Source: an uncultured Clostridia bacterium (GTDB taxonomy: Bacteria; Bacillota; Clostridia; TANB77; CAG-465). From it: DNA of 64,000 nt. Position numbers and translations under genes: made by a program. The stretch covers positions 1,636-65,635 of the forward strand of contig CAOYAN010000006.1 of the NCBI GenBank assembly GCA_948562205.1, written 5' to 3'. This document shows, one piece after another, positions 5,216 to 62,784 of the stretch. Below the pieces are notes generated by a model, which saw only the letters and a list, made by a program, of their open reading frames with translations, was not told where the DNA came from and made no database searches. Each line of letters begins with the position of its first letter. The stretch's first letter is position 1.

Positions 5216-5231
5216 ATTCTCCTCCTAATTT

Positions 5232-8200: not shown

Positions 8201-9551
8201 TTGTATAAAATTTTTGTGTATTATTATAACTTTCAAGTAATTTTTTATCCTCAAAAGAAAGTATATTAATACTATCTACAGTTACATTAATATTATCTAA
8301 AAAATTTTCTATCATTGTAATTAATCTTAAATGTAAATATTTAATTTCTTCAAGACTAAATAATTCTTTTAGAAAATCATAATTTATTTCAAGTATTCCT
8401 GTATCATCCATGTCTAATATATGTATTTGTAAATCTTCCGCTTGTGTATTATTTGAGTACCATTTAGTTGAATAGATGGACTCTTCTTCATAATTTGCTT
8501 TTGCATTTTGGTATGATAATAATATGCTGTATAAATTCTCTTTTATATCGCTCTTACTTCTAATATCACTTAGTATACTATCATATGGAAAACTTTGATG
8601 CCTAAAACATGACATAGTATTACTAGCTATACTTTTTGCAAGATCTAATACTTTTATATTCTCTTCAATTTTTATTCTAATTGGAAGTGTTGCTATAAAC
8701 AATCCTATTATTTGTTTTTCTCTAAAATTTTTTCTATTTAGTGTCGGTGATCCTATTATAACATCATCTATATTTTTAGTTCTATATATATATACTGATA
8801 AAATTGTAAGAAATAAAATATATGGTGATATTTTATTCTCTTTACAAAATATAATTATTTTATCATTTATTATTTTATCTAATTTTACATTATATCTATT
8901 TGAATAATTAGAAATATTACTAGTTTTATCTTTTAATCTTACTACATTTGAAACCCCATCTAAATATTCTTTATAATATTTGCTATCTTTTATATATTTT
9001 TCACTTTTGCTATATGAATTTTGGAATTCAATAAACTCGATATAACTTGGATATGTAATGTTTTCCTCTACATTTTCTTTTACATTTGTATAAGTTTTAG
9101 TAAATTGTTCTATAATCTTAGAAAAACTCCAAGCATCAGATATTATATGATGTATTCTTAAAAGTACACTACCCTTTGTATTAGAGTATTTTAATATCTT
9201 AAATTCATATAATTTTTTACTAAACATATCAATCTTAGTATTTGCAATATTTTGAATATATTCTTCTATTTCTTGATTTGATAATGATGTCATATCAACT
9301 ACTTCTATTTTCTCATAATTATAATCCTTAATTATTTGATATACATCACTAGAATTCATGTAAATATTAATTCTCATTGCATCATTATTTTTTATAATTT
9401 CATTTATAGCTATATCACAAAACTTAATATCAAACTCTTTATTTATATTAATAATACCAGTTATCATATTTATACTAGTATCACTATACACTTTATCAAC
9501 TAAAAAAATATTTTTTTGTGGGAACGTTAAATCATACATCTTACTATCCAT
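5232..9551 (-). CDS. Single-module non-ribosomal peptide synthetase, C-A-T-R (terminal thioester reductase)
   Basis: C domain HHIISDAWS. A domain LIYTSGSTGNPKGV, YGPTETT, YLTGDLGR and LNGKIDRK. Carrier domain FFEMGADSLMAI. R domain LLTGVTGFLGMHIL plus YxxxK (YVYTKFKAE). Confidence 0.9.
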   Translation of the reverse strand: MDSKMYDLTFPQKNIFLVDKVYSDTSINMITGIININKEFDIKFCDIAINEIIKNNDAMRINIYMNSSDVYQIIKDYNYEKIEVVDMTSLSNQEIEEYIQNIANTKIDMFSKKLYEFKILKYSNTKGSVLLRIHHIISDAWSFSKIIEQFTKTYTNVKENVEENITYPSYIEFIEFQNSYSKSEKYIKDSKYYKEYLDGVSNVVRLKDKTSNISNYSNRYNVKLDKIINDKIIIFCKENKISPYILFLTILSVYIYRTKNIDDVIIGSPTLNRKNFREKQIIGLFIATLPIRIKIEENIKVLDLAKSIASNTMSCFRHQSFPYDSILSDIRSKSDIKENLYSILLSYQNAKANYEEESIYSTKWYSNNTQAEDLQIHILDMDDTGILEINYDFLKELFSLEEIKYLHLRLITMIENFLDNINVTVDSINILSFEDKKLLESYNNTQKFYTKEKSVIDLFEEQVLKNKDNIALIFENKKITYNELNKKANIVANYLLKIGIKRNDIIPIMMKRSEELIITILAILKCRATYLPIDISYPKDRIEYILKNSKSSFGIKDKESNFDFCGINLEYIDFEKLYSSENLNNKNNLNIPFEDSDISYLIYTSGSTGNPKGVLVSSKNLINFVYGINEELNINSSDKIVSITTISFDIFGLEIFLPLVNGATIVLANEVECIDGEKLDSLCLKLDVTVIQTTPTKLKMLLNKTEYIYKMKKILLGGERVSKDFVDRLKSITKACIYDVYGPTETTIWSTIQDITNSLKVSAGRPIANTKIYILDKKNRVLPIGVSGQIAISGEGVSLGYYDNKEATDKNYIYSQKLKEKIYLTGDLGRIDFNSKLSVLDRVDLQVKLNGQRIELEDIEKNIEMYENIKEAIVILKENRFLVCYYIKNDNNEKVDKNDLLKFLYNKLPTYMIPVVYKELEHFPLTLNGKIDRKKISSFDVDFDSTKILEKPKTKLQETLYLVFAKVLGREDFGINDRFFEMGADSLMAIKAQIELLSYGIHIEYKNLLKYQSIKGLEGYIKRNKKENKDNILENYDDYNDYNDILLKNKTVKKDKIKKSGVENILLTGVTGFLGMHILDSFMKNEKGKIYCIIRSKDKKNSNDRFLEILHYYFGEKYDLEIGNRIIILQGNFIEENLGIKKEKYDEIIKNIDLVIHSAACVKHYGYADYFKKVNIDGTKNIAKFCFENNKKLIHISTISVSGNSFEMMNSNEIFNNTIDFDETCFYKKQNLDNIYVYTKFKAEETVLDYMKKGLQANILRVGNLTGRYSDLKFQHNICDNAFSNKIKTFIDIGYFPVSNSDIDIEFTPVDSCADAIIKISEYFNNYHNIFHLYDNNHIKIDMFIKILRELGTDVKIIDDESFVKMVEEISHSKNNDILNGIVNDLNEKNMLNYKTNVSVKSEYTQSYLKELGFCFPKIDNEYIRKYIDYLREIGFIKK

Positions 9552-9708
9552 ATATATACCTCATTTCTAGCAAACACTTACGCTTAAAGTTAGTATATCA
9601 GAAATAAAAATTTTAATCAACTATTTTAGATATAAAAGAAATTGTAATAATTAGAAAAGGAGAAAAAAATATAATACAACTAAAATAATACATATTTCAA
9701 AATTTGAA

Positions 9709-9781
9709 CCAAAAAAATCAACTTTACAGTTGATAAGTTAGTTGGTGCCCTAACTAGACACGTTTTCGAAATCGTTAGGGC
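9709..9781 (-). promoter_or_regulatory. Structured element with a terminator-like hairpin in the long NRPS 5' region
   Basis: Minus strand: GCCCTAAC...GTTAGGGC (9781-9747). An overlapping alternative is AGTTAG/CTAACT. Then ATCAACT-GTAA-AGTTGAT (9734-9717) followed by TTTTTTT. It lies ~160 nt upstream of the NRPS start. Confidence 0.35.
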
Positions 9782-10096
9782 AAAAAAATATCTATTTTCA
9801 ACTCTTAATTATAGTTATATCAATAATTTGCAAGAATTATATTTGCAAACTTGTTTTTTGACTATATTTAATGTAACATACAATACTTAAAATTACAAGG
9901 GTTAAATCAAAATAATATTTTCAAAAATTTGTTTTGTTCACTTGTATTTTATCTAATAATGTTGTATAGTTGTAGACATAGAAAATGAGAATAAGCGAAG
10001 TGTGTTGCCACCTTTGACAACTTAGTATTTACAAAAACCTCCACAACTTAGTTTGTGAGATTGAATATAGGAGGTGGTTAATATGGTAGAATCAGC

Positions 10097-18464: not shown

Positions 18465-19852
18465 TATCTTCCCCCCTTATTAATTACATCAATAACATTA
18501 TTAATCATTTTTATTTCAGTAAAATTACGGTTTCCTTTATATAAATCTTCTTTGCTAATTAAACCACAATATTCTTTTTTAGTTTCATAAGAACCATCTT
18601 GATGATAATTTACATCTGAATCATAAACAACTAAAACTTGTGTTTTACTTTCTGCAATAATATCTAAAGTTCTTCCTACTGTTTTGTTTACAAGTTTTGA
18701 ATGAGAAATTTTACTTGTATTTTTATCAATAAAGTAAAGAGTTTTGTCATTAAAGCTATATTCATAACACATTATTTTATCTCCAATAATTCCATAAATA
18801 CCATTTTGAGATAATTTTACAAAAGAATTTTTTTCTCCTGTTTTTAAATCAATTTTTATAATTTCACCATCTCCCTCTTTAGAAAAATATAAGTATTTAT
18901 CATCTGTTACATAACTACGAGAATGTGCTGCAAATATACGATAGATTTCTTTACTTTCCCTATTTTCTACATTAATAGTTTTAAATACATCATAAGAATT
19001 TTTGTACACTTCAGTATCTTCACTATGTTTTTCTTCTTCTGAAACTTTTTTTCCAAAATCTATTCCATGTAAAATTAGATTTTTATCACTACATCCAATA
19101 ACGTCCCATTCAACATTATCATTAAAGTCCATAGAAAAAACTTTCTTTTCCTTTTTTGTTTTTACATCTAAATAAACTAAATTTTTCTCTGATGATGTTT
19201 GATAAGAATTACCATTAATGCTTTTTGCTGACACTTTTTTAGTAACAAAATAAAGCCCATTCTCATCTCCAACTACAAAATCTTCTACAGTAAGATTACT
19301 GTCAAATGTATAAATCTTTTCTCTATTTGTTCCATCTAAGTTTAAACAATATAATATGTTAGAGCTTCCTTCTACTTCAGAACTTGTACTTACTCCTAAA
19401 GCTACTACTCCATCTTGATCCTGCTGTTTACTTAAAATAAATATCTTATTATTCCATATAAAAAGTATAGATGAATCAGATGGAACTTCATTTTCTAAAA
19501 ATACAGATGAACAACTTTCTGTGTAATGATTACAACCAGAATTACTACATAAATAAATTTCTTGATGAGTAGCAAAGTCAATATACATCAAATGAGATAT
19601 TCTTTTACCATTTAATAATTTTTCTGTATCACTTTGAAAATAGTAATACCCATCATCTGTATTTGAAGTATTAGAAATTAAAGATAATTTACCTTTCATT
19701 TCTATTTCATCTGTTCCTTTTCCTGTTACCCCATCAAAATCTTTTGATACAATATCATCATTTGTTAAGTCTGTATTTTTTAATAATTTACCACCAAATA
19801 TTAATACCAAACCTATTCCAATGATTATCAATAAAATAATTAATTTTTTCAT
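18464..19852 (-). CDS. N-terminally anchored extracytoplasmic protein, 462 aa, beta-rich
   Basis: A single N-terminal TM (MKKLIILLIIIGIGLVLIF) then a Ser/Asp/Tyr-rich repeat-like sequence. Its stop overlaps the ABC ATPase start. Confidence 0.6.
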   Translation of the reverse strand: MKKLIILLIIIGIGLVLIFGGKLLKNTDLTNDDIVSKDFDGVTGKGTDEIEMKGKLSLISNTSNTDDGYYYFQSDTEKLLNGKRISHLMYIDFATHQEIYLCSNSGCNHYTESCSSVFLENEVPSDSSILFIWNNKIFILSKQQDQDGVVALGVSTSSEVEGSSNILYCLNLDGTNREKIYTFDSNLTVEDFVVGDENGLYFVTKKVSAKSINGNSYQTSSEKNLVYLDVKTKKEKKVFSMDFNDNVEWDVIGCSDKNLILHGIDFGKKVSEEEKHSEDTEVYKNSYDVFKTINVENRESKEIYRIFAAHSRSYVTDDKYLYFSKEGDGEIIKIDLKTGEKNSFVKLSQNGIYGIIGDKIMCYEYSFNDKTLYFIDKNTSKISHSKLVNKTVGRTLDIIAESKTQVLVVYDSDVNYHQDGSYETKKEYCGLISKEDLYKGNRNFTEIKMINNVIDVINKGGR

Positions 19853-22924: not shown

Positions 22925-23009
22925 TGGTGCGGGTAAAAGGACTTGAACCTTCACGTCGCTAGACACCGGCTTCTAAGACCGGCGCGTCTGCCAATTCCGC
23001 CATACCCGC
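22925..23009 (-). tRNA. tRNA-Leu (anticodon UAG), class II with long variable arm, encoded CCA
   Basis: Acceptor GCGGGTA/TACCCGC + A + CCA. Anticodon stem CCGGT/GCCGG with loop CTTAGAA. T-arm GAAGG-TTCAAGT-CCTTT. 85 nt. Confidence 0.9.
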
Positions 23010-54542: not shown

Positions 54543-54611
54543 ATATATCTATAATAACAAATCAGATTTATTCTGGTTTGTTTTTTTATAAATTGTACCA
54601 CAATAAGATAA

Positions 54612-54645
54612 AGAGAATAAGTAGAAAATTCTCTACTTATTCTCT
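54612..54645. terminator. Bidirectional terminator
   Basis: AGAGAATAAGTAGA / TCTACTTATTCTCT, a 14-bp perfect stem with flanking A and T runs. Confidence 0.75.
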
Positions 54646-54659
54646 TTTATTAGTGTTTA

Positions 54660-55814
54660 TTAAAACAAAATTTTATCTTCAGGTATAAAATCCTTAGATA
54701 AAGAATAGTTACTGTACTTAATATCTCCTGTAACATTTTTTACTTCTTCTATCCCAACTGGAAGTTTTGCACCTACATCTTCTCTACTTCCTCTAATTTC
54801 AAGAACTGCATATTTTTCCCAATTTGGATAAATATCTAAATTATAATAAGTATCTCCCTCAGAAAAATACCATCTATCCTTTATAATTGGGCGTCTTTCC
54901 ATATCCATTTCAAGCATAAGAGCATCGTATATATCTTTACTAATACTCTTTTCTATATAATCGTTATAATTTCCTATTGCTTTTTTAGTAAGATAATACA
55001 CAAAATTATTTCCATCTCCCATCATTCTAATTCTTCTTTCTTCTTTACCATTAGATTTAAGATAAACTTGAATGATGTTTCTTCTTTGAGCCTTTTTATT
55101 AAGAAGATACTCATAAGTTGGTTTTTTAATAATAATCTTTTCCTGATGTTGAGATGGAATAGGCTCACCTACACATGATAAAAAGACATGTAGGGCTTTT
55201 TGCTTTTTACCCTCAAAATCAGTTTCATTTCCAATATAGTAAATTTCATTATGACCAATATATGCACTTTTAATTTTTTCATCGAGTGCAATAGCTACCT
55301 CACAAGTCTCGTCTTTAGAACGTGCGGGATTATCAGCTCTACTCTTCTCAAAAGCCTCTTTTGCCCCATTTGCAGCAGTAACCATATGAATTATAGCTCT
55401 ATATCTAGATAAAATTTCAATTTCAGACTTATTTTCATCTCGAAGTATTGATTGCCATTCATCATCACTCATATACGCTTTTGCATCAAGAAGACCCCTA
55501 TCACAAATAACTACAAGTTTTCGATCACTATTTCTTTTCATAGTTCTATACAGTTCCTCTTTAAAATACTGCATTTTAAAAAGAATTCTTTGAAATTCAA
55601 TTGGATCAGTTATTCCATTAAAAGGCTTTACTCCAGATGTAATAATTTCTGTTGCACTTTCCTTAATCCAAACTACATCATAATTTCTACAAAGAAGAGC
55701 TTCAGTAAATAAAAGTTCCAAACTTGATTTTCCAGCAACTGGACCACCAGTTAGTGCATAAATCGATACATCATTACCTTTTCCAATTTCTTTCTCAAAA
55801 ATACTTTTTGACAT
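54660..55814 (-). CDS. P-loop NTPase/kinase domain (NadR ribosylnicotinamide-kinase-like, AAA_28-type) fused to a CYTH-like domain
   Basis: Walker A GGPVAGKSS and Walker B-like VVICDRGLLD. The C-terminal ~190 aa are beta-rich with conserved acidic and basic residues, resembling a CYTH triphosphate-tunnel fold. The domain calls are by eye. Confidence 0.6.
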   Translation of the reverse strand: MSKSIFEKEIGKGNDVSIYALTGGPVAGKSSLELLFTEALLCRNYDVVWIKESATEIITSGVKPFNGITDPIEFQRILFKMQYFKEELYRTMKRNSDRKLVVICDRGLLDAKAYMSDDEWQSILRDENKSEIEILSRYRAIIHMVTAANGAKEAFEKSRADNPARSKDETCEVAIALDEKIKSAYIGHNEIYYIGNETDFEGKKQKALHVFLSCVGEPIPSQHQEKIIIKKPTYEYLLNKKAQRRNIIQVYLKSNGKEERRIRMMGDGNNFVYYLTKKAIGNYNDYIEKSISKDIYDALMLEMDMERRPIIKDRWYFSEGDTYYNLDIYPNWEKYAVLEIRGSREDVGAKLPVGIEEVKNVTGDIKYSNYSLSKDFIPEDKILF

Positions 55815-56004
55815 ATTATTCTCCTCTCGCTTTATTGATAGTTACAATAAATATACTTTAGTTACCATAAGAATTATATCATAAAATCTATAAAAATCAA
55901 AGTAAAATTTTTTATTAAAGGTTTTTTAAACAAAAAACTCACCATATACTACATTTTTTTGCAATATATGATGAAATTTTTCTATCTAATACATAATATA
56001 TATA

Positions 56005-56703
56005 TCAATTTCTAATATACTCTACATTAGAACGTTCCCACTTTACTGTATTTAATAATGAATTTGCAGTATATATAACATACATAAACAATATTGATAA
56101 ATTAGCATCACTAGTAGAATAATTTATAGCCCACATTACTATTGATAATATATTGGAAATGTTAAATAAATACCATACTTCTTTTTTTCGTAATATTAAG
56201 CAAATATATGCACTTATACTTAATACAGTTGTTGTAGCATCCAAATAAGGTTGGGCATCTTTAAAAGCTACTAATATTGTTCCATATACTATAATAGAAA
56301 ATATAACTAAAAATGTAAATATTATTCTTTCTTTTAAATTAAATGAAGAAATATTTGCAACTGTAGTATCTTTACTTGCCCTAAACCAAGTAATTAATCC
56401 TATAATACAACATGGACACGAATAAAATATATTTAACATGAAATCTCCATATAATCTATTTTGATATGATACTATTCCATAAATAAATGTATTTACTATA
56501 CCAAACAAAAATGCTACTGATAATCTACAACCATTCAAAATTACATATATAACTCCCATTATAGATGCTATAATAGCTAAAATACTATTGTTAGTATTTA
56601 CTGATATAATTGTTATTCCAATAGTACACAAAATAAGCCATACTATATCAAATACTTTTAAAGATTTTAGCTCTAATAATAATTTTTTTGTTATATTCAT
56701 CAT
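56005..56703 (-). CDS. pnuC: PnuC-family nucleoside (nicotinamide riboside-type) transporter
   Basis: 7-8 TM helices with YQNRLYGDFMLNIFY...GLITW, which matches the PnuC signature region. The likely start is ATG 56703. Confidence 0.7.
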   Translation of the reverse strand: MMNITKKLLLELKSLKVFDIVWLILCTIGITIISVNTNNSILAIIASIMGVIYVILNGCRLSVAFLFGIVNTFIYGIVSYQNRLYGDFMLNIFYSCPCCIIGLITWFRASKDTTVANISSFNLKERIIFTFLVIFSIIVYGTILVAFKDAQPYLDATTTVLSISAYICLILRKKEVWYLFNISNILSIVMWAINYSTSDANLSILFMYVIYTANSLLNTVKWERSNVEYIRN

Positions 56704-56745
56704 GCGTTTTATTCCTCTCATATATATTACTATCTATTCTTTAAA

Positions 56746-57522
56746 TTAATTAAAATTAGAATACTTATATTTTTCATATATAACTTCTAATTTCGTTAAA
56801 AATTCTTTTCCATAAAGTTCCTTTATTTTGCTAAAATACTTATCTTTAAAGTCTATAATATCAGAATTCCATTTATGGCATAAACATAATAAAAGTCGAT
56901 TTTCATCAATAGCATTATCGCTTAAAATTACACCACCAATTTCTGGAAATATAGTGTTTGGAAACAATAAATTTCCATTTAGAGCAGATAATATCATTGC
57001 ATTAGAAGAACTACTATTTAGATTTTCTTTATATAAGTTAGGATATCTACTTTCAATATTAATATCATCTAAAACCAAAATTGTATCTTTTTTAACATTA
57101 TTTTTCAAGCACAAAAGATCTAGTACTTCTCCAGGTATAAAATGAACTGTATCTAATATTACCATGTCAAATATTCCAATATTATCAGTTACTTCAGGAA
57201 TAAATTTACCAGTTAATAGTTTAAACTTAGTTAAATCCAAATAATCTTTTAATTCATAAACTTCAGATCCAATAGCAGGTTTACCATTTTTATAATTAGC
57301 AATTATTTCTGTATCTATGCTTACCAACTCGCAATTTATCCCTAGCTCTTTTATGCAATTCAAATATACAGAAGTAGAACCACCAGTTGATACACCTATT
57401 TCCAATATTCTTCTAGGTTTATATTTTTCAATTAAACTACAAATCCAAATTAAGTTATCATCTGATAAAGATTTCTGACTTTTATGTTTTAGTCTATTTA
57501 ATATATTAAGATAATTTGTCAT
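56746..57522 (-). CDS. Class I SAM-dependent methyltransferase
   Basis: Motif I ILEIGVSTGGST and the acidic loop VSIDTE. Overlaps the upstream gene by 17 nt. Confidence 0.7.
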   Translation of the reverse strand: MTNYLNILNRLKHKSQKSLSDDNLIWICSLIEKYKPRRILEIGVSTGGSTSVYLNCIKELGINCELVSIDTEIIANYKNGKPAIGSEVYELKDYLDLTKFKLLTGKFIPEVTDNIGIFDMVILDTVHFIPGEVLDLLCLKNNVKKDTILVLDDINIESRYPNLYKENLNSSSSNAMILSALNGNLLFPNTIFPEIGGVILSDNAIDENRLLLCLCHKWNSDIIDFKDKYFSKIKELYGKEFLTKLEVIYEKYKYSNFN

Positions 57523-58759
57523 ATTTACTCTCCTTGTATTTTAAATAAATATATTGTGTTAATAAATAAGAATTACTTGATATATACTTTTCTAATTCTA
57601 AAGAGTCCATTTCAACTACATCTATATGTTCAAATTCATCTAAGCATTGTTCTCCTAATTCTTCATTACAAGTTTCGCCAGAAAATATATAAACTTTACC
57701 TTTACTATTTCCAACATTTTGATAATATGAACCTAATAATTTAATATTGTCTCTTTTGATATTATAACCTGTCTCTTCTTTTACTTCTCTTATCCATGCA
57801 TCATAATGATCTTCTAAATAATCCTTACTTCCACCTGGAAATTCAGTGTTATATCTATTAATTCCATATCTATATTGATTAACCATAACATATTTATTTG
57901 TAGATTTATTAAATAAAACTCCTATAACATAATCCCCTTGATCATAAATATAAATTTTATGTAATTTTTTAGCAAGTGCATCATATTCTTCATAAGATCT
58001 AATATTTCCTATTGGTGATGAATATTCAACTTCTCCTCTTTCTTCTGTTTTATATTTATCAGTCCAAGATCTATCATAATCTCCATTAACATGACCATTA
58101 AAGGAAAATGGTTGCTTAAATTTTGGAAGTAATATATCATGTCTTTTTATAGTTACACCTCTATATATGTCTGCTTCTATTTGTCCAAATAAACTTATTT
58201 TCTCATCATATTCTAACGTATTTAAGAAATCTGATATATCACATAATTCTTTTGGAAATCTTGGAGTAGGTTCAAGTGTTGCAAGACGTAAATGAAATTT
58301 GTCTTTATATTTTTCAATAAATTCATCTAAATCTTTTTTGTTATCTAATCTTCCTTTATACATTAATGCTGATAGCGATATATCAGCTGTATAATCTTTT
58401 TGATCTGGTAATTCTTTTTGATTATAATATGAAATATTAATACTATCCAAATATTTATCACATTCTTTTAAAACATCAGGTTTTACATAATTTGTAGTTA
58501 TAACTGTCTTAAATCCATATTCTTTACAAGTTTTACAAATCCATATTATATCAGGATGCAAAAGTGGCTCTCCACCTAAAATACAAACTTCTTTTATATT
58601 ATTTTCTTTTGCAGTATTCATTATCTTTATAAAATTTTCTTTTGTGATATCTTTGCCAAATTTTCTATTTTCGTCAAAGCAAAATGGGCAATGTCTATTA
58701 CATCTATTTGTAACCATAACATGAATAAACTCATTAGTTTTAATTTCTTTTCTAAACAT
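57506..58759 (-). CDS. Radical SAM domain fused to a Nudix hydrolase domain (ADP-ribose pyrophosphatase-like)
   Basis: N-terminal CNRHCPFC (CxxxCxxC) and GGEPLLHPD. C-terminal VNQYRYG..EFPGG plus a complete Nudix box GSKDYLEDHYDAWIREVKEETGY (Gx5Ex7REVxEExGY). AAGGAG before ATG 58759. Confidence 0.75.
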   Translation of the reverse strand: MFRKEIKTNEFIHVMVTNRCNRHCPFCFDENRKFGKDITKENFIKIMNTAKENNIKEVCILGGEPLLHPDIIWICKTCKEYGFKTVITTNYVKPDVLKECDKYLDSINISYYNQKELPDQKDYTADISLSALMYKGRLDNKKDLDEFIEKYKDKFHLRLATLEPTPRFPKELCDISDFLNTLEYDEKISLFGQIEADIYRGVTIKRHDILLPKFKQPFSFNGHVNGDYDRSWTDKYKTEERGEVEYSSPIGNIRSYEEYDALAKKLHKIYIYDQGDYVIGVLFNKSTNKYVMVNQYRYGINRYNTEFPGGSKDYLEDHYDAWIREVKEETGYNIKRDNIKLLGSYYQNVGNSKGKVYIFSGETCNEELGEQCLDEFEHIDVVEMDSLELEKYISSNSYLLTQYIYLKYKESKYDKLS

Positions 58760-58787
58760 AATATCTACTCCTTTCATGTTTAAGAAA

Positions 58788-58813
58788 AAAGATAGTTCCT
58801 ATCCCCTATCTTT
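58788..58813 (-). promoter_or_regulatory. Terminator-like hairpin inside the operon leader, ~15 nt upstream of the RBS (candidate attenuator or riboswitch expression platform)
   Basis: Minus strand AAAGATAG-GGGATAGGAA-CTATCTTT followed by TTTC. It lies downstream of the predicted promoter. Confidence 0.35.
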
Positions 58814-58915
58814 TTTTGTTTTACAACTTTAATTAGCAATTATTATTCTGATTTTTCTCTTATTTTACATTTTTTTGCTACTATTACTTTGTAAAGTTTT
58901 ATTTTTGTTATTAAC

Positions 58916-58944
58916 ATTATATTAATAACAAGCGGTTTTGTCAA
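58916..58944 (-). promoter_or_regulatory. Consensus promoter of the radical-SAM/Nudix operon
   Basis: Minus strand TTGACA (58944-58939), 17 nt, TATAAT (58921-58916). Confidence 0.6.
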
Positions 58945-59059
58945 TACTTTTTTGTCAAAATATGATATTTTCCACTAAAATTCATACTTTATTAAAAAAA
59001 TAAGCCTTATTTAGTTTTAAGACTTATTAATAATTTTTACTATATTATACTTAAAATTT

Positions 59060-62000
59060 CTACTTAACCTTTACATTTTCCTTTCCAAAAGCAATTTCTA
59101 GTTTATTTATTGTAGCATCATTAGTAGATAAATACATATTTTTATTTAAAAGTCTAACTTTATTTGTACCCTCTAAAAAAATATATACAGGATTATCTCC
59201 AAAGTCATTATCATCTAAATTTTTTATATATTCTATTACTCTTGGTTCCAATTCTAATTTATCTTTTGGCACTTTAATATATATCTTACTTTGTTTAGTT
59301 ATCTTAGATACATCATTTACAAGAATTTTTGCTTTTTCATTTTCCTTAGTACTTACTTTACCTACAACCTTAACAACACTATCTGCTACAATAATGTTTG
59401 AAAACTTTTGAAATACTGTAGGGAAAAATACAAGTTCTACACTACCATACATATCATCAATACTTGCAAATAACATTTGTGCATTATTTTTTGTAGTAAA
59501 TATTTTAAGATGCGAAAGTATACCACAAAATACTACAGTTTTTGAATCATAATCAGTATTGTAATTTCCATCTTGATCATCTACTTCATCATCATTTAAG
59601 TCTTTACTTGTAACAGTAGCATTATTTTTAATATATTCAGCATATTCATCAAGTGGATGTCCTGATATGTATAATCCTAATACATCTTTTTCCATATCGA
59701 GTAATTCCTTTTTTGTTGGCTTCTTTTGACTTCTTGTAATATTTATACTAGATGTATCTTCACTTTCTCCTAAATCAAAAAAGTTTATTTGATTTTTATA
59801 ATTATTTTTTCTTGTTTGATTTACACCATCTACTATAGTTTCAAAATTATCTAGTAAATCAAATCTAGTATATTCTTTTTCAAGTTCATCAAAACAACCT
59901 GCCTTAATTAAGCTCTCAATACATTTTTTATTAACACTGTCGCTTGCAACTCTTTCACAAAAATCAATAAAACTCTTAAATCTACCATTTACCTTTCTAT
60001 CATTTATTATTTCTGCTATAGCATTCTCACCAGCATTTTTAATAGAATTTAGAGAAAATCTAATCTTACCATTAATAACTGAAAATTTAGGATAACTCTC
60101 ATTTATATCTGGTCTTTGTACTACTACCCCTAATTCTTTACATTCTTCTATATATATAGCTATTTTATTTAAGTTGCTAATCATACTATTCATTGTAGCA
60201 GCCATAAATTCTTCTTTGTAATGACATTTCAAATATGCAGTTTGATAAGCAACAACAGCATATGCTGCTGCATGAGATTTATTAAAAGCATATTTTGCAA
60301 ATTCTACCATCTCATCAAATATCTTATTTGCACTAGACTCATCTATTCCATTTTTACTAGCACCTTTTACAAATACTTCTCTCTCTTTGTTCATTACATC
60401 TAGTTTTTTCTTACTCATAGCACGCCTTACAATATCTGCTCTACCTAGACTATATCCTGCTAAATCTCTAAATATCTGCATAACTTGTTCTTGATAAACC
60501 ATACAACCATATGTATTTTTTAAAATTGGTTTTAGTGACTCATGTGTATAAATAATATTTTGAGGATTATTTTTATTATGAATATATCTAGGTATTTGAT
60601 CCATAGGACCTGGTCTATATAATGATATCATAACAATAATATCTTCTAGTGAGTCTGGTTTCATTTTCATCATCATCTGCCTAAAGCCTGGACTCTCCAT
60701 TTGAAATACACCAAGTGTCTTTCCTGACTCTAACATTTTAAATGTATCCATATCTGTCATATCACCAAAATCTACATTTATTCCATGTATCTTTTTTATA
60801 AGTTTTAAAGTATCTGATATTACTGTAAGAGTTCTAAGTCCTAAGAAGTCCATTTTAAGTAATCCTAACTCTTCTAAAGTTGTCATAGTATATTGTGTTG
60901 AGATAATATCTGAATTTTCATATAATGGCACATAATTTACAACTGGTTCTTTAGTAATAACAACACCTGCTGCATGAGTTGATGCATGTCTTGCCATCCC
61001 CTCTAATTTTTTAGATATATCTATAACTCTTCTTGTTTCAGTGTCTTCATAGTATAAATCTCTTAATTCTTTATTTATTTCAAGAGCCTTTTCAATAGTC
61101 ATTTTAAGATCACGTGGTACCATCTTAGATATCATATCTGCTTTTTGATATGGTACATCAAGAACTCTTGCTACGTCTCTTATAGCAGCACGCGCTGCCA
61201 TTGTTCCAAATGTAATTATTTGTGCTACATGATCTCTTCCATATTTTCTTGAGACATAATCAATGACTTCTCCTCTTCTCTCATAACAAAAGTCAACATC
61301 AAAATCTGGCATACTAACTCTTTCAGGATTTAAAAATCTCTCAAAGATAAGATTAAATCTTAATGGATCAATATCTGTAATCCCTATAAGATAAGCAGCA
61401 ATAGATCCTGCACCACTACCACGACCTGGACCTACAGGAATATTTTGAGATTTAGCATAATTTATAAAATCTGCAACAATTAAAAAATAATCTATATATC
61501 CCATTTTATCTATAACACTTATCTCATAATCTAGCTTTTTTAGAACTTCATCTCTTTTTGATACATCATATCTTTTATCAATTCCTGCATAACAAAGTCT
61601 TTTAAAATATTCTAAATGTGAAATATCCTCATCTATTTTAAACTCGGGAAGTATTGTTGTACCAAAATTTAGAGTAACATTACACATATCTGCAATTTTT
61701 TGTGTATTCTCTATTGCAGATGGAATATTTAAAAATGCTTCCTTCATTTCTTCTTCATCTTTAACATAGAACTCATTTACAGAAAAAGACATTCTATTTT
61801 CATCACTCATAGTAGTTCTTGTTTGAACACAAAGAAGTACTTCATGAAACTCATAATCTTCCTTTTCCAAATAATGACAATCATTTGTAGCAACAAGACC
61901 AACATCAAACTCCTTAGAAAGTTTAATTAAATTTTGATTTACAAGTATTTGCTCCCTTAATTTATTATCTTGTACTTCCAAAAAATATCTATCTTTTCCA

Positions 62001-62494
62001 AAAATATTTATAAATCTTTGTATTACCTCTTTTACTCCATCAATATTTCCATTTACAATCTTTCTTGCAACCTCTCCTGCAAGACATGCTGAAAGACATA
62101 TAATCCCTTCATTATATTTTTCTAATACTTCCATATCAATACGTGGCTTATAATAAAAGCCCTCTGTATAACCGATTGAGCAAAGCTTTACAAGATTTTT
62201 ATAACCTGTATTGTTCATAGCAAGAAGTATTAAATGGTTAGGCTCTGTATCTATCTTTCCTTGTTTATCAAGCCTACTTCTTGGAGCAACATATACTTCA
62301 CAACCAATAATTGGTTTTATGCCCTCTGCTACACATTTTTTATATAATTCAACAGCTCCAAACATATTACCATGATCAGTAATAGCTACTGCATTCATAT
62401 TAGATTTTTTTACTTTTTCAACTAACTTATCAATTCTTATAGCACCATCAAGTAAACTATACTCTGTATGCATATGTAAATGAACAAATCCCAC
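59060..62494 (-). CDS. dnaE: DNA polymerase III alpha subunit (DnaE type)
   Basis: 1144 aa. PHP domain FVHLHMHTEYSLLDG, palm/fingers motifs, C-terminal OB fold. Confidence 0.97.
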   Translation of the reverse strand: MGFVHLHMHTEYSLLDGAIRIDKLVEKVKKSNMNAVAITDHGNMFGAVELYKKCVAEGIKPIIGCEVYVAPRSRLDKQGKIDTEPNHLILLAMNNTGYKNLVKLCSIGYTEGFYYKPRIDMEVLEKYNEGIICLSACLAGEVARKIVNGNIDGVKEVIQRFINIFGKDRYFLEVQDNKLREQILVNQNLIKLSKEFDVGLVATNDCHYLEKEDYEFHEVLLCVQTRTTMSDENRMSFSVNEFYVKDEEEMKEAFLNIPSAIENTQKIADMCNVTLNFGTTILPEFKIDEDISHLEYFKRLCYAGIDKRYDVSKRDEVLKKLDYEISVIDKMGYIDYFLIVADFINYAKSQNIPVGPGRGSGAGSIAAYLIGITDIDPLRFNLIFERFLNPERVSMPDFDVDFCYERRGEVIDYVSRKYGRDHVAQIITFGTMAARAAIRDVARVLDVPYQKADMISKMVPRDLKMTIEKALEINKELRDLYYEDTETRRVIDISKKLEGMARHASTHAAGVVITKEPVVNYVPLYENSDIISTQYTMTTLEELGLLKMDFLGLRTLTVISDTLKLIKKIHGINVDFGDMTDMDTFKMLESGKTLGVFQMESPGFRQMMMKMKPDSLEDIIVMISLYRPGPMDQIPRYIHNKNNPQNIIYTHESLKPILKNTYGCMVYQEQVMQIFRDLAGYSLGRADIVRRAMSKKKLDVMNKEREVFVKGASKNGIDESSANKIFDEMVEFAKYAFNKSHAAAYAVVAYQTAYLKCHYKEEFMAATMNSMISNLNKIAIYIEECKELGVVVQRPDINESYPKFSVINGKIRFSLNSIKNAGENAIAEIINDRKVNGRFKSFIDFCERVASDSVNKKCIESLIKAGCFDELEKEYTRFDLLDNFETIVDGVNQTRKNNYKNQINFFDLGESEDTSSINITRSQKKPTKKELLDMEKDVLGLYISGHPLDEYAEYIKNNATVTSKDLNDDEVDDQDGNYNTDYDSKTVVFCGILSHLKIFTTKNNAQMLFASIDDMYGSVELVFFPTVFQKFSNIIVADSVVKVVGKVSTKENEKAKILVNDVSKITKQSKIYIKVPKDKLELEPRVIEYIKNLDDNDFGDNPVYIFLEGTNKVRLLNKNMYLSTNDATINKLEIAFGKENVKVK

Positions 62495-62784
62495 TTTATT
62501 TCACCCGTAATCATTATATCAAAATAAGTACTAAAAATCTAGTAATATCATAATATTGATACTTCTAATTTAATTCATTTAATATTTATATATATATATA
62601 TTTTTTCTAAATAGAAAAAATATGTCCCTTATTCTTTTTACAGAATAAAGGACAAAAATTTACAAAATGATATGATTTATTACTCGCACCAATCACAAGC
62701 AAGAACATTTACTTGTTATATTTATAATAACCTTTTTTAGTAATAAATCAAGTAAATTCTAATAAATATATATATTATTATATG

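What the first reader, a model, noticed from the sequence alone, without database searches (positions are those of the whole stretch)
54660..58944. Uncharacterised NAD/nucleoside-linked operon: radical-SAM::Nudix fusion, methyltransferase, PnuC transporter, plus P-loop kinase::CYTH protein
A consensus promoter (58944-58916) drives three tightly coupled genes:
- a fusion of a small radical-SAM domain (CNRHCPFC, GGEPLL) to a complete Nudix domain whose pre-box region (VNQYRYG..EFPGG) resembles ADP-ribose pyrophosphatases
- a class I SAM methyltransferase, overlapping the fusion gene by 17 nt
- a PnuC-family nucleoside transporter

Immediately downstream, with its own TTGATT-16-TATAAT promoter, is a protein joining a NadR-ribosylnicotinamide-kinase-like P-loop domain to a CYTH-like triphosphate-tunnel domain.

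PnuC plus an NR-kinase-like protein alone would be ordinary nicotinamide-riboside salvage. The radical-SAM::Nudix fusion and the methyltransferase are not part of any NAD salvage or nucleoside pathway that I know. Possible roles are radical-mediated modification and methylation of an imported (or exported) ribonucleoside or ADP-ribose-like molecule, with Nudix clean-up of the nucleotide product. Another possibility is a modified-nucleotide, viperin-style product; the CNxxCxFCF spacing resembles the viperin/MoaA branch.
Basis: partly seen in the sequence, partly recalled or inferred. Interest (0 to 1): 0.65.

Follow-up and report, generated by a model that had tools for sequence, protein, structure and literature searches.

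The report
Mobile radical-SAM/Nudix–methyltransferase–PnuC gene cassette
A 3-kb, three-gene cassette of unknown chemistry (a radical-SAM enzyme fused to a Nudix hydrolase, a methyltransferase and an unusual vitamin-B3-type transporter) has inserted next to a polymerase gene in a mouse-gut bacterium; it still carries traces of an NAD-sensing repressor, and the neighbouring kinase gene is not part of it.

Summary

The grouping needs correcting. The three genes form a self-contained 3.15-kb cassette (window 55906-59052) inserted between dnaE and the kinase gene. A related genome has dnaE directly followed by the kinase gene. In eight independent contexts the trio stays together while its flanks change, and the kinase never accompanies it.

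The NAD link comes from elsewhere. In two relatives the trio is led by nrtR, the ADP-ribose-responsive repressor of NAD genes. The window keeps the same promoter, with a perfect 10+10 inverted repeat over the -10 box, and its 156-nt leader is a decayed nrtR 3' end.

The rSAM domain belongs to a small unnamed family. It is structurally nearest to MoaA, viperin and BlsE, and one member is fused to an NDP-sugar-forming nucleotidyltransferase. The Nudix domain is of the NDP-sugar/ADP-ribose class. The PnuC variant lacks two of four nicotinamide-riboside contact residues and occurs only in this cassette. No publication describes it.

The chemistry is unknown. The best guess is radical and methyl remodelling of an ADP-ribose-like or NDP-linked ribosyl compound, coupled to nucleoside transport.

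The parts
55906..59052 (-). Whole inserted cassette (3,147 bp; GC 23.5% against 28.6% for dnaE and 30.4% for the kinase gene)
   Evidence: blastn: window 62545..59053 = L014 2404..5898, and window 55905..54676 = L014 5906..7139, so about 8 nt in L014 corresponds to 3.15 kb here. GC values.
58994..59028 (-). Weak hairpin plus T-run just after the dnaE stop, inside the inserted DNA. It replaces the dnaE terminator hairpin seen in L014.
   Evidence: Read from the sequence. The terminator scan did not flag it because it has only 2 G-C pairs.
58916..58944 (-). Sigma-70 promoter TTGACA-17-TATAAT (12/12)
   Evidence: The block 58961..58894 is 81% identical to the promoter upstream of nrtR in L001, and the same core is present in L002 and L020.
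58905..58931 (-). Perfect inverted repeat TTGTTATTAA-N7-TTAATAACAA spanning the -10 box; candidate NrtR operator
   Evidence: It is the only exact match in the window; 0.2 matches with up to 3 mismatches are expected by chance. The core TTAATATAATGTTAATAACAA is shared with L002 and L020, and variants GTTAGTAAC / GTTTATAAAC lie upstream of nrtR in L001/L003. Binding was not tested.
58760..58915 (-). 156-nt leader = decayed 3' end of an nrtR gene (pseudogene remnant with stop codons)
   Evidence: Local alignment to L003 nrtR scores 45, and 0 of 500 dinucleotide shuffles reach it (maximum 44). Against L001 the score is 36, reached by 21 of 500 shuffles. The translated leader '..KIRIIIAN*..FFLNMKGVDI' compares with the NrtR C-terminus '..FRRIIADKVEK..LFKYKGVDD'.
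58782..58817 (-). A/U-rich hairpin plus U-run inside the leader, just before the RBS
   Evidence: Fold of the leader: -19.6 kcal/mol, z=-2.7. No Rfam family matches. It is not conserved in L002 or L020, which have short leaders. It lies within the nrtR remnant.
58061..58759 (-). Radical-SAM domain of the fusion protein (aa 1-233; C20-x3-C24-x2-C27, G62GEP)
   Evidence: Model pLDDT 83. Nearest folds are MoaA, viperins, BlsE and AbmM. The family is small: 33 representatives at E<1e-30.
57506..58042 (-). Nudix domain of the fusion protein (aa ~240-417, stop codon included) with its N-terminal beta subdomain; intact Nudix box
   Evidence: Foldseek top hits are NUDT14, NudF, YffH and the B. methanolicus ADPRase, aligned over 170-200 residues.
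56746..57522 (-). Class I SAM-dependent methyltransferase-like gene (Methyltransf_24 / CmcI-like), overlapping the fusion gene by 17 nt
   Evidence: It is conserved next to the fusion gene in all contexts.
56005..56721 (-). PnuC-family transporter, cassette-specific variant (probable start 56703)
   Evidence: Residues at the NR-contact positions are C/Y/N/Y instead of Q/Q/N/Y in all 8 copies. The subfamily is confined to about 36 clusters.
55938..55975 (-). Intrinsic terminator closing the cassette (T-run extends to 55928)
54660..55814 (-). NEIGHBOUR, not part of the cassette: AAA_28 P-loop :: CYTH protein with its own promoter (55900..55873) and terminator (54647..54610)
   Evidence: Its promoter and gene are collinear with L014, where they directly follow dnaE.

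Best explanation
SHOWN: The finding contains two unrelated things.

(1) A self-contained, horizontally mobile cassette of about 3.15 kb (55906-59052, minus strand) sits between dnaE and a resident gene. It consists of:
- a consensus promoter whose -10 box lies inside a perfect 10+10-bp inverted repeat;
- a decayed remnant of the repressor gene nrtR;
- three tightly coupled genes: an rSAM::Nudix fusion, a CmcI-like class I methyltransferase, and a divergent PnuC-family transporter;
- a terminator.
The ancestral form, still present in relatives, is nrtR-fusion-MT-pnuC, sometimes with a GT-A-like fourth gene.

(2) The AAA_28::CYTH gene downstream is part of the chromosomal backbone. It is adjacent to the cassette only because the cassette inserted there.

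INFERRED (mechanism): The cassette is an accessory branch of the NrtR (ADP-ribose-sensing) NAD regulon.
- The PnuC variant lets an uncharged ribosyl nucleoside cross the membrane. The nucleoside is related to nicotinamide riboside but is probably not NR itself.
- The rSAM domain uses a 5'-deoxyadenosyl radical to abstract a hydrogen from the ribose or sugar of a nucleoside-diphosphate-linked substrate (ADP-ribose-like or NDP-sugar-like).
- The methyltransferase O-methylates a hydroxyl of that substrate or product.
- The fused Nudix domain cleaves the pyrophosphate bond, giving a nucleoside monophosphate plus a modified (phospho)sugar or nucleoside.

Because the window copy has lost nrtR but kept the operator, it is either constitutive or controlled in trans by an NrtR encoded elsewhere in the genome.
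For: Cassette and insertion:
- L014 has dnaE directly followed by the kinase gene, with the same backbone of SPFH/NfeD, M23 and S15. The breakpoints map to 59053 and 55905.
- The trio is intact in 8 independent contexts (window, L001, L002, L003, L005-7, L008-9, L020-24, L025-28) with different flanks. In L025-28 it splits an ABC-transporter operon, and in L026 an IS integrase lies beside it.
- The cassette has lower GC than its flanks.
- The fusion and the PnuC variant have equally narrow distributions, about 40 clusters each followed by a sharp drop in similarity.

NrtR link:
- nrtR (NUDIX + NrtR_WHD, 59-63 bits) lies directly upstream of the fusion gene in L001 and L003.
- The promoter/operator block is shared, and the inverted repeat is unique in the window.
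- The leader is an nrtR 3' remnant.
- NrtR is known to repress NAD genes, including the nadR-pnuC-nrtR operon, and to respond to ADP-ribose (PMC2330246).

Substrate class:
- The Nudix box is intact, and the best sequence and fold matches are ADP-ribose/NDP-sugar pyrophosphatases.
- The nearest folds to the rSAM domain are MoaA, viperins, BlsE and AbmM, with DesII lower down. All act on nucleotides or nucleotide-linked sugars.
- One family member, P0220, is fused to a sugar-1-phosphate nucleotidyltransferase.
- Some loci add a GT-A-like gene.
- The MT resembles the sugar/hydroxyl O-methyltransferase group CmcI/RMNT.

Expression: the locus is recovered in four mouse-gut metatranscriptome assemblies.
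Against: - No biochemical data exist; every mechanistic step is inferred.
- No nrtR was found in the 64-kb window. The inverted repeat does not fit the common NrtR core GT-N7-AC, and its binding is untested.
- Copies L025-28 use a different promoter without the repeat.
- NrtR-family regulators also control pentose utilisation, so the effector need not be ADP-ribose.
- The Nudix domain scores below all NCBIfam cut-offs (NudE 30.5 against 169; YffH/AdpP 29.5 against 79.55). It has NVG where ADP-ribose pyrophosphatases have SPG.
- The nucleotidyltransferase fusion partner points to NDP-hexoses rather than ADP-ribose.
- The cassette has no kinase for metabolic trapping, which PnuC-type facilitators normally need (PMC13464706). 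The transporter might therefore export a product rather than import a substrate.
- The MT call is marginal (26.9 against 26.3 bits).
- The RNA evidence consists of low-depth contigs, and DNA carry-over cannot be excluded.
Confidence: 0.45

Rival explanations
1. PnuC and the AAA_28::CYTH protein together form a nicotinamide-riboside uptake-and-trapping pair like PnuC/NadR. The rSAM::Nudix and MT genes add a modification step, and all four act in one pathway.
For: The genes are physically adjacent in the window. AAA_28 is the Pfam family that also holds the NadR ribosylnicotinamide kinase domain. Some members of the kinase family carry an N-terminal HTH, reminiscent of NadR, and one sits beside a YgjV-type small membrane protein. 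The cassette itself lacks a trapping kinase.
Against: The kinase gene, with its own promoter, is collinear with L014, where it directly follows dnaE and no trio is present. It is absent within +-6-8 kb of the trio in all 7 other contexts. In 4 other contexts of the kinase family there is no PnuC. Profile similarity to NadR is not significant (E=0.87). A terminator separates pnuC from the kinase gene. The CYTH metal-binding glutamates are lost.
Confidence: 0.08
2. A viperin-like producer of a modified nucleotide or nucleoside antimetabolite. The rSAM domain dehydrates or rearranges the ribose of an NTP or NDP compound. Nudix trims the phosphates, the MT caps a hydroxyl, and the PnuC variant lets the uncharged nucleoside leave (or re-enter) the cell. 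The product would act against phages or competitors.
For: The best NCBIfam and PADLOC matches of the rSAM N-terminus are prokaryotic viperins (55 and 66 bits). Viperins are among the top fold matches, with TM about 0.6-0.65. PnuC proteins are facilitators that could act in either direction. The cassette has no trapping kinase. It is mobile and patchily distributed, as defence genes are.
Against: The scores are far below the viperin cut-off (55 against 180), and only 100 of about 260-280 profile positions align. The domain is about 50 residues shorter than viperins and lacks their C-terminal NTP-binding extension. The Nudix type is NDP-sugar/ADPR rather than NTP pyrophosphatase. Control by a metabolic repressor (NrtR) is not typical of defence genes. 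No PADLOC hit was found for the MT or PnuC.
Confidence: 0.15
3. A module of phage origin for the NAD/ADP-ribose conflict (NARP-like counter-defence or signal destruction), later captured by bacterial chromosomes. PnuC imports an NAD precursor, while rSAM::Nudix and MT destroy or disguise ADP-ribose-derived molecules made by host NADase defences.
For: The most divergent copies lie on phage-like contigs. L005-7 carry a phage-type helicase (phrog_2488, 291 bits) and DNA polymerase, and the stand-alone rSAM relatives in L010 and L012 lie next to phrog_20187 / polymerase exonuclease. PnuC is a recognised phage auxiliary gene (phrog_1880, 143 bits). Phage PnuC+NadR (NARP3) restores NAD+ depleted by Sir2-HerA (PMC13464706). 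Phage Nudix domains are proposed to process ADP-ribose (PMC7824862). A Tpt1-type NAD-dependent gene is on the L005 contig.
Against: The fusion is absent from 50,697 isolated phage genomes, and the MT has no phage match at all. Most copies are chromosomal, in gut Bacilli MAGs, and sit among housekeeping genes. The cassette has no NMN adenylyltransferase or NR kinase with which to rebuild NAD+. The phage nature of the metagenomic contigs is inferred from a few genes only.
Confidence: 0.17
4. An NDP-sugar tailoring set for a glycan or glycosylated small molecule. The rSAM modifies an NDP-hexose or NDP-pentose, the MT O-methylates it, and a GT-A enzyme transfers it. Nudix acts as a proofreading or recycling hydrolase, and the PnuC-like protein has a function unrelated to NAD.
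For: There is an NTP_transferase::rSAM fusion in the same rSAM family. A GT-A-like fourth gene occurs in L001, L003 and L008-9. The MT is nearest to the rhamnosyl O-methyltransferase/CmcI family. The Nudix fold matches GDP-mannose and UDP-glucose hydrolases. BlsE and DesII appear among the fold neighbours.
Against: The window and most other copies have no glycosyltransferase. The gene invariably linked to the fusion and MT is a PnuC-family nucleoside transporter, which has no role in glycan synthesis. The regulator scores better as NrtR (59-63 bits) than as AraR (31 bits). No flippase, polymerase or carrier-lipid genes are nearby.
Confidence: 0.1

Closest known systems
Streptococcal nadR-pnuC-nrtR operon (NAD salvage pathway III under NrtR; Rodionov et al. 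2008, PMC2330246)
   Same: A PnuC-family transporter in one operon with an NrtR repressor, and a promoter carrying a palindromic operator. It occurs in Firmicutes. A Nudix-fold protein is part of the system.
   Different: The enzyme partner there is NadR (NR kinase + NMN adenylyltransferase). Here it is an rSAM::Nudix fusion plus a methyltransferase, and the cassette has no kinase or adenylyltransferase. The PnuC here has Cys and Tyr at two of the four NR-contact positions. The operator sequence differs from the described GT-N7-AC core.
NARP3, phage PnuC + NadR-like two-gene module (Yan et al. 2026, PMC13464706)
   Same: A compact, mobile PnuC-centred module that moves between phage-like and chromosomal contexts.
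   Different: NARP3 rebuilds NAD+ from imported NR using a NadR-like enzyme. The present cassette has no NAD-synthesising enzyme and carries radical-SAM, Nudix and MT activities that have no role in NARP1-3.
Viperin / prokaryotic viperins (pVips)
   Same: The CNxxCxFC cluster motif and GGEP SAM motif. Viperins are among the nearest folds (TM ~0.6). A nucleotide is a plausible substrate.
   Different: The score is 55 bits against the family cut-off of 180. Only the N-terminal ~100 residues align. The domain is ~233 aa and ends in its own beta-rich C-terminal subdomain instead of the viperin NTP-binding extension. It is fused to Nudix.
MoaA (GTP 3',8-cyclase)
   Same: It is the best fold match (E=5e-9, TMq 0.63) and shares TTN / SxNIS-type strand motifs.
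   Different: There is no second, C-terminal [4Fe-4S] cluster: only the three cluster cysteines are invariant. Scores are 44-52 bits against cut-offs of 231-325. There is no molybdenum-cofactor gene context.
NadM-Nudix / KVP40 NatV (NAD enzymes fused to an ADP-ribose pyrophosphatase-type Nudix)
   Same: A catalytic Nudix domain of the ADPR/NDP-sugar class is fused to another enzyme in an NAD-linked, NrtR-type setting.
   Different: The fusion partner is a radical-SAM domain rather than an NMN adenylyltransferase, and the residue pattern downstream of the Nudix box differs from that of canonical ADPRases.
AAA_28 + CYTH proteins ('CYTH domain-containing protein/predicted ATPase'), for the neighbouring gene
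   Same: The window protein is a full-length member at 35-97% identity. The family is large (326 hits), and some members have an extra XRE HTH.
   Different: In the window subgroup the CYTH ExExK motif is QHQEK and 'EIE' is 'EIR', so triphosphate-tunnel catalysis is probably lost. The family as a whole is uncharacterised.

Membership tests
Radical SAM superfamily | CxxxCxxC cluster motif, GGEP SAM-binding motif and a partial TIM-barrel core | tested here: met
   PF04055 at 52.5 bits. C20/C24/C27 and G62-G63-E64-P65 are invariant. The model has pLDDT 83 with a beta/alpha core.
Viperin (NF038283 / TIGR04278; PADLOC pVip) | Full-length match at or above the curated cut-off, including the C-terminal NTP-binding extension | tested here: not met
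   55.3 bits against a cut-off of 180, aligned to profile positions 7-114 of 281. The PADLOC pVip hit covers positions 2-100 of 257.
MoaA | Second [4Fe-4S] cluster held by three C-terminal cysteines; equivalog score | tested here: not met
   Only C20, C24 and C27 are invariant in the family. Scores are 44-52 bits against cut-offs of 231-325.
Nudix hydrolase (catalytic) | Nudix box G-x5-E-x7-R-E-U-x-E-E-x-G-U | tested here: met
   GSKDYLEDHYDAWIREVKEETGY in the window; the catalytic positions are kept in all fusion homologues, including the 57%-identical P0045. PF00293 at 39.7 bits.
ADP-ribose pyrophosphatase (NudF/NudE/YffH-AdpP subfamilies) | Subfamily score at or above cut-off, and the conserved Pro ~15-16 residues after the Nudix box (the latter recalled from the literature on ADPRases) | tested here: not met
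   NudE 30.5 bits against 169, and TIGR00052 29.5 against 79.55. The alignment to B. methanolicus ADPRase puts NVG opposite SPG. The fold class nevertheless matches, including the N-terminal beta domain.
PnuC nicotinamide riboside transporter | Family HMM at or above cut-off | tested here: met
   TIGR01528 at 112.8 bits against 42.45, PF04973 at 129 bits, and 4QTN at E=9e-26.
PnuC nicotinamide riboside transporter | The four NR-coordinating residues of N. mucosa PnuC (Q124, Q196, N214, Y242 in PMC13464706 = Q99, Q171, N189, Y217 of chain 4QTN) | tested here: inconclusive
   All 8 cassette copies have C, Y (L in L005), N and Y at these positions. Two of the four are kept, so substrate identity cannot be decided from sequence.
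NR salvage / NARP3 (PnuC + NadR) | A NadR-type partner with RNK and NMNAT domains next to pnuC | tested here: not met
   The cassette contains no NMNAT or RNK domain. The neighbouring AAA_28 protein is not linked to the cassette elsewhere and is not significantly similar to NadR.
NrtR regulon | An nrtR gene (degenerate Nudix domain + NrtR winged helix) linked to the operon | tested here: inconclusive
   Met in L001 and L003 (NrtR_WHD 59-63 bits). In the window only a decayed 3' remnant is left, and no intact nrtR lies within 64 kb. The rest of the genome is unavailable.
NrtR regulon | NrtR binding to a palindromic operator, relieved by ADP-ribose | not testable with these tools
   A candidate operator is present at 58905..58931 and is conserved with nrtR-linked promoters. 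It does not match the GT-N7-AC core described for most lineages.
Class I SAM-dependent methyltransferase (Methyltransf_24 / CmcI-like) | Family HMM at or above cut-off and SAM-binding motif I | tested here: met
   26.9 bits against 26.3, so marginal. Motif I (ILEIGVSTGGS) aligns to CmcI 2bm8. Homologues in other loci also hit PF13578.
CYTH / triphosphate tunnel metalloenzyme (neighbouring gene) | Homology to the CYTH fold | tested here: met
   The family profile hits 2fbl and 3typ at E=6e-12 to 7e-12 over positions 203-361. PF01928 is hit by 16 of 23 homologues.
CYTH / triphosphate tunnel metalloenzyme (neighbouring gene) | Catalytic ExExK signature | tested here: not met
   The window protein and its three closest cluster representatives read QHQEK where the family has EIERK, and LEIRG/S where it has LEIEL.
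Known riboswitch / cis-regulatory RNA in the leader | An Rfam covariance-model match, or conservation of the leader | tested here: not met
   No match at gathering thresholds, and only chance-level hits at E<10. The leader is absent from L002 and L020 and is explained as an nrtR remnant.

The most novel reading that the evidence does not exclude
The cassette encodes an undescribed branch of ribosyl-nucleotide metabolism. A radical-SAM enzyme, physically coupled to a pyrophosphatase, makes a radical-modified and then O-methylated ADP-ribose, NR or NDP-ribose derivative. The cognate nucleoside is carried by a dedicated PnuC variant. The whole unit is controlled by an ADP-ribose-type sensor and spreads horizontally between gut Bacillota and their phages. 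The product could be a new cofactor-like molecule, a signal, or an NAD-mimicking weapon or shield in phage-host conflict.
Probability: 0.3. Interest if true: 0.8.

Novelty: new variant of a known kind. Interest (0 to 1): 0.55.

Why it matters
PnuC modules under NrtR control are the textbook route for nicotinamide-riboside salvage, and in 2026 they were shown to be used by phages to defeat NAD-depleting immunity. In this cassette the usual NadR partner is replaced by a radical-SAM::Nudix fusion and a methyltransferase, and the transporter's substrate pocket is altered.

If the inferred chemistry is real, it would define a new reaction on ADP-ribose-like or NDP-linked ribosyl compounds, and a new transported nucleoside, in uncultured mouse- and human-gut Bacillota. 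It would also assign a function to a small orphan radical-SAM family of about 40 sequence clusters.

The practical result for annotation is this: the 'PnuC + kinase' neighbourhood in this genome is an insertion artefact and should not be read as a salvage pathway.

Tried and rejected
1. Riboswitch or attenuator in the 140-nt leader. Rfam gave nothing at gathering thresholds and only chance-level hits at E<10. The hairpin folds better than shuffles (z=-2.7), but the leader is missing in L002 and L020 and turned out to be an nrtR remnant.
2. Known defence system. PADLOC gives only partial pVip matches to the rSAM N-terminus and nothing for the MT, PnuC or kinase.
3. Isolated phages and plasmids. 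The fusion is in neither collection and the MT has no phage match. The stand-alone rSAM relatives on Vibrio megaplasmids sit among hypothetical genes and taught nothing.
4. Named rSAM subfamily. NCBIfam scans of the fusion protein and of 10 nearest relatives gave only generic N-terminal matches to MoaA, viperin and NrdG, all far below cut-off.
5. The viral fold library returned only generic phage rSAM proteins.
6. Literature. No paper combines PnuC with radical SAM and Nudix, or NrtR with radical SAM. The nrtX/nrtY unknowns of the NrtR paper are not defined there. The viral NAD-ADPr survey PMC9503650 mentions none of these genes.
7. Target-site duplication or terminal repeats at the insertion borders. 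None was seen when reading the junctions, and the cassette contains no recombinase, so how it moves is unknown.
8. A second operator copy in the window. The only other hit (18744-18770, 3 mismatches) lies inside a coding region and is within chance expectation.
9. The full-length AlphaFold model was mediocre (pLDDT 66, with the linker at 192-274 below 50), so the geometry between the two domains was not interpreted.

Full report
WHAT IS IN THE SEQUENCE. The window is AT-rich (about 26% GC). Between 54660 and 58777 there are four minus-strand ORFs exactly as described.

HMM searches confirm the domain calls:
- Fusion protein: Radical_SAM (52.5 bits) plus NUDIX (39.7 bits).
- Second protein: Methyltransf_24, marginal at 26.9 bits against a cut-off of 26.3.
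- Third protein: NMN_transporter/PnuC (129 bits; TIGR01528 112.8 bits).
- Fourth protein: AAA_28 (56 bits).

CYTH is not detectable on the single sequence. A profile built from 23 homologues hits the CYTH structures 2fbl and 3typ at E~1e-11, and 16 of the 23 homologues hit PF01928.

The promoter at 58944..58916 is a 12/12 consensus match, and the kinase promoter at 55900..55873 is 10/12. Terminators follow pnuC and the kinase gene. Homologues all begin MF(R/N)xxIKT, so the fusion gene starts at 58759, behind an AAGGAG site.

THE TRIO IS A UNIT AND THE KINASE IS NOT PART OF IT. The fusion protein has only about 45 database clusters at 57% identity or more, all with the same architecture and mostly from uncultured 'Bacilli bacterium' gut MAGs. 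Beyond those the search finds stand-alone rSAM proteins at 39-49% identity, and then generic rSAMs at about 27%.

I retrieved the fusion gene in eight independent genomic contexts: the window, L001, L002, L003, L005-7, L008-9, L020-24 and L025-28. In every one the MT and PnuC genes are adjacent. In L005-7 the order is PnuC-fusion-MT.

The flanks differ each time:
- nrtR and a GH3 gene (L001, L003).
- AraC/Cass2 upstream and a HerA-like ATPase downstream (L020-24).
- The middle of an ABC-transporter operon, with an IS integrase alongside in L026 (L025-28).
- Phage-type helicase and DNA polymerase (L005-7).

The kinase::CYTH gene is in none of these contexts.

The reverse also holds. In L014, a Clostridia MAG whose kinase is 76% identical, the backbone is dnaE followed directly by the kinase gene, then SPFH/NfeD, M23 and S15. 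blastn places the breakpoints at window 59053 and 55905. About 8 nt in L014 corresponds to 3,147 bp here. The kinase promoter lies on the backbone side.

The inserted DNA has 23.5% GC, against 28.6% for dnaE and 30.4% for the kinase gene. Other members of the large kinase family (326 hits) sit next to a thymidine-kinase-like gene, a YgjV-type membrane protein or DUF2325. None sits next to PnuC. The 'PnuC plus NR-kinase' reading is therefore an accident of where the cassette inserted.

THE NAD LINK COMES FROM NrtR. In L001 and L003 the gene directly upstream of the fusion gene encodes a degenerate-Nudix plus NrtR winged-helix protein (NrtR_WHD 59-63 bits). This is the family that represses NAD genes and is released by ADP-ribose. 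It includes the streptococcal nadR-pnuC-nrtR operon (PMC2330246).

The window promoter block 58961..58894 is 81% identical to the promoter upstream of nrtR in L001. Its -10 box lies within a perfect inverted repeat, TTGTTATTAA-N7-TTAATAACAA (58931..58905). That repeat is unique in the window, where chance predicts 0.2 matches with up to 3 mismatches. The core TTAATATAATGTTAATAACAA recurs in front of the fusion gene in L002 and L020.

The window has no nrtR, but its 156-nt leader is what remains of one:
- It aligns collinearly with the last ~50 codons of nrtR. Against L003 the score is 45, and 0 of 500 dinucleotide shuffles reach it. Against L001 the score is 36, reached by 21 of 500.
- It still translates to '..IRIIIAN*..MKGVDI', against NrtR '..FRRIIADKVEK..KYKGVDD'.

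This remnant also accounts for the leader hairpin. I first suspected an attenuator, but there is no Rfam match and the leader is not conserved.

The ancestral operon was therefore nrtR-fusion-MT-pnuC. The window copy has lost its cis-encoded repressor but kept the operator. I have not shown that NrtR binds this repeat. The repeat does not fit the common GT-N7-AC core, and the L025-28 copies use a different promoter.

WHAT THE PROTEINS LOOK LIKE.

The rSAM domain (aa 1-233) modelled well on its own (pLDDT 83, pTM 0.82):
- Its nearest solved folds are MoaA (E=5e-9), viperins, BlsE, AbmM and GDGT-MAS, with DesII further down. TM-scores are about 0.5-0.65. This set is rich in enzymes that act on nucleotides or nucleotide-linked sugars.
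- It is not a member of any of those families. It scores 55 bits against the viperin cut-off of 180 and 44-52 bits against MoaA cut-offs of 231-325, and only the first ~100 residues align.
- Only the three cluster cysteines are invariant, so there is no auxiliary cluster.
- An exhaustive HMMER search with a domain-only profile found 33 representatives at E<1e-30, mostly stand-alone proteins of 230-250 aa.
- One of them, P0220, carries an N-terminal sugar-1-phosphate nucleotidyltransferase domain. A family that is fused in one case to an enzyme that makes NDP-sugars, and in another to a Nudix of the class that cleaves them, suggests a nucleoside-diphosphate-linked substrate.

The Nudix half:
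- It has an intact catalytic box.
- Its best sequence and fold matches are ADP-ribose/NDP-sugar pyrophosphatases (NudF, YffH, NUDT14). They align over 170-200 residues, which includes the N-terminal beta domain.
- It stays below the subfamily cut-offs and has NVG where ADPRases have SPG.

The MT is closest to the CmcI / rhamnosyl O-methyltransferase group. It has essentially no relatives in the phage or plasmid collections.

Some loci add a GT-A-like fourth gene: L001, where it is in frame with pnuC, L003 and L008-9. L005-7 instead add a second small rSAM gene.

THE TRANSPORTER IS NOT A STANDARD PnuC. It aligns to N. mucosa PnuC over its full length (E=9e-26). Four NR-contact residues are listed for that protein (PMC13464706). 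At those positions, all eight cassette copies have Cys for the first glutamine and Tyr (Leu in L005) for the second. The Asn and Tyr are kept. Q181 and W185 also differ.

This PnuC subfamily is as narrowly distributed as the fusion: about 36 clusters at 60% identity or more, followed by a drop to 31-33%. It therefore appears to exist only within the cassette.

PnuC proteins are facilitators that normally rely on a trapping kinase, and the cassette has none. The direction of transport and the substrate are both open.

EXPRESSION AND HABITAT. The exact locus occurs in mouse-gut metagenomes and in four metatranscriptome assemblies. One contig of 4.8 kb runs from the kinase terminator into dnaE. 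This is consistent with transcription in vivo, but the depth is low and DNA carry-over cannot be excluded.

MOST LIKELY MECHANISM.

What is shown: a mobile nrtR-derived cassette with three co-inherited genes.

What is inferred: an accessory branch of the NrtR/ADP-ribose regulon in which
- the PnuC variant carries an NR-like nucleoside;
- the rSAM domain performs hydrogen-abstraction chemistry on the ribose or sugar of an ADP-ribose-like or NDP-linked compound;
- the MT O-methylates it;
- the fused Nudix cleaves the pyrophosphate bond.

I put about 0.9 on the structural conclusions and about 0.3-0.35 on the biochemical outline, which gives 0.45 overall.

The rivals are:
- a viperin-like antimetabolite producer with PnuC as the exit route (0.15);
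- a phage-derived NAD/ADP-ribose conflict module (0.17), supported by the phage-like contexts of the divergent copies and by NARP3, but weakened by the absence of the fusion from isolated phages;
- NDP-sugar tailoring for a glycan (0.10);
- the original four-gene salvage model (0.08).

NOVELTY. Searches of open-access literature and preprints found no description of this gene combination. The closest described systems are nadR-pnuC-nrtR and NARP3. The cassette shares the transporter family, and probably the regulator, with them, but the enzymes are entirely different. I therefore rate it a new variant of a known kind. It is of moderate to good interest, mainly for radical-SAM enzymology and NAD/ADP-ribose biology in gut Bacillota.

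Noticed in passing
window 54660-55814 (-), residues ~221-225 and ~339-343: In the window protein and its three closest cluster representatives, the CYTH signature ExExK reads QHQEK and the C-terminal 'LEIEL' reads 'LEIRG/S'. More distant homologues (35-40% identity) keep EIERK. The triphosphate-tunnel domain is probably non-catalytic in this subgroup.
   Followed up: partly
P0083-P0149 etc.; L030 5001-6920: Many members of the AAA_28::CYTH family carry an N-terminal XRE-type HTH, an HTH + P-loop kinase layout reminiscent of NadR. In L030 this form sits directly upstream of an Imp-YgjV small membrane protein. The family has 326 hits and appears uncharacterised.
   Followed up: partly
window 54543-54660 compared with L014 7139-9148: Relative to L014, the window lacks three genes between the kinase gene and SPFH/NfeD (140 aa, a Peptidase_C39_2 protein, 124 aa). 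This is a second indel in the same short stretch of backbone.
   Followed up: no
L001 9986-11548; L003 10896-11570; L008 6935-7408: A fourth cassette gene encodes a ~270-aa GT-A-like protein (weak Glycos_transf_2 hit, 'LLDNLDYL' motif). In L001 it is in one reading frame with pnuC (a 520-aa ORF), and in L003 it is a separate or shifted ORF. It is absent from the window.
   Followed up: partly
L005 / L006 / L007 (whole loci): These are phage-like contigs that carry the most divergent cassette (57% identity, order PnuC-fusion-MT). They also carry a second small rSAM (237 aa), a phage-type helicase and DNA polymerase, DFP/CoaB-like and flavoprotein genes, DUF1848 and, on L005, a Tpt1/KptA-type RNA 2'-phosphotransferase (an NAD-dependent enzyme).
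   Followed up: partly
P0220 (467 aa): A member of the same small rSAM family is fused to an N-terminal NTP_transferase (sugar-1-phosphate nucleotidyltransferase) domain. P0192 and P0194 (330-338 aa) have ~100-residue C-terminal extensions with no Pfam match.
   Followed up: partly
L025-L028, locus positions ~4130-9921: The cassette sits between the permease gene and the NMT1-type substrate-binding-protein gene of an ABC transporter operon. L026 has an rve-family integrase immediately upstream, and a Transposase_31 gene lies nearby. These copies use a different promoter and a ~140-nt leader without the inverted repeat.
   Followed up: no
window 58936: All four mouse-gut RNA-run assemblies read C instead of T at 58936, in the spacer just after the -35 box. 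The three coding sequences showed no listed differences, whereas the 3' end of dnaE shows many SNPs (59132-59444).
   Followed up: no
L029 (Vibrio parahaemolyticus pVP-19-VB00998, 786419-787153) and three similar records: Vibrio replicons of 0.88-0.94 Mb, annotated as plasmids, carry a stand-alone member of this rSAM family (39% identity over the whole domain). It lies in a long run of small hypothetical genes with a DinG helicase nearby.
   Followed up: partly
window 22928-23009 (-): A single tRNA gene is the only Rfam gathering-threshold match in the whole 64-kb window.
   Followed up: no
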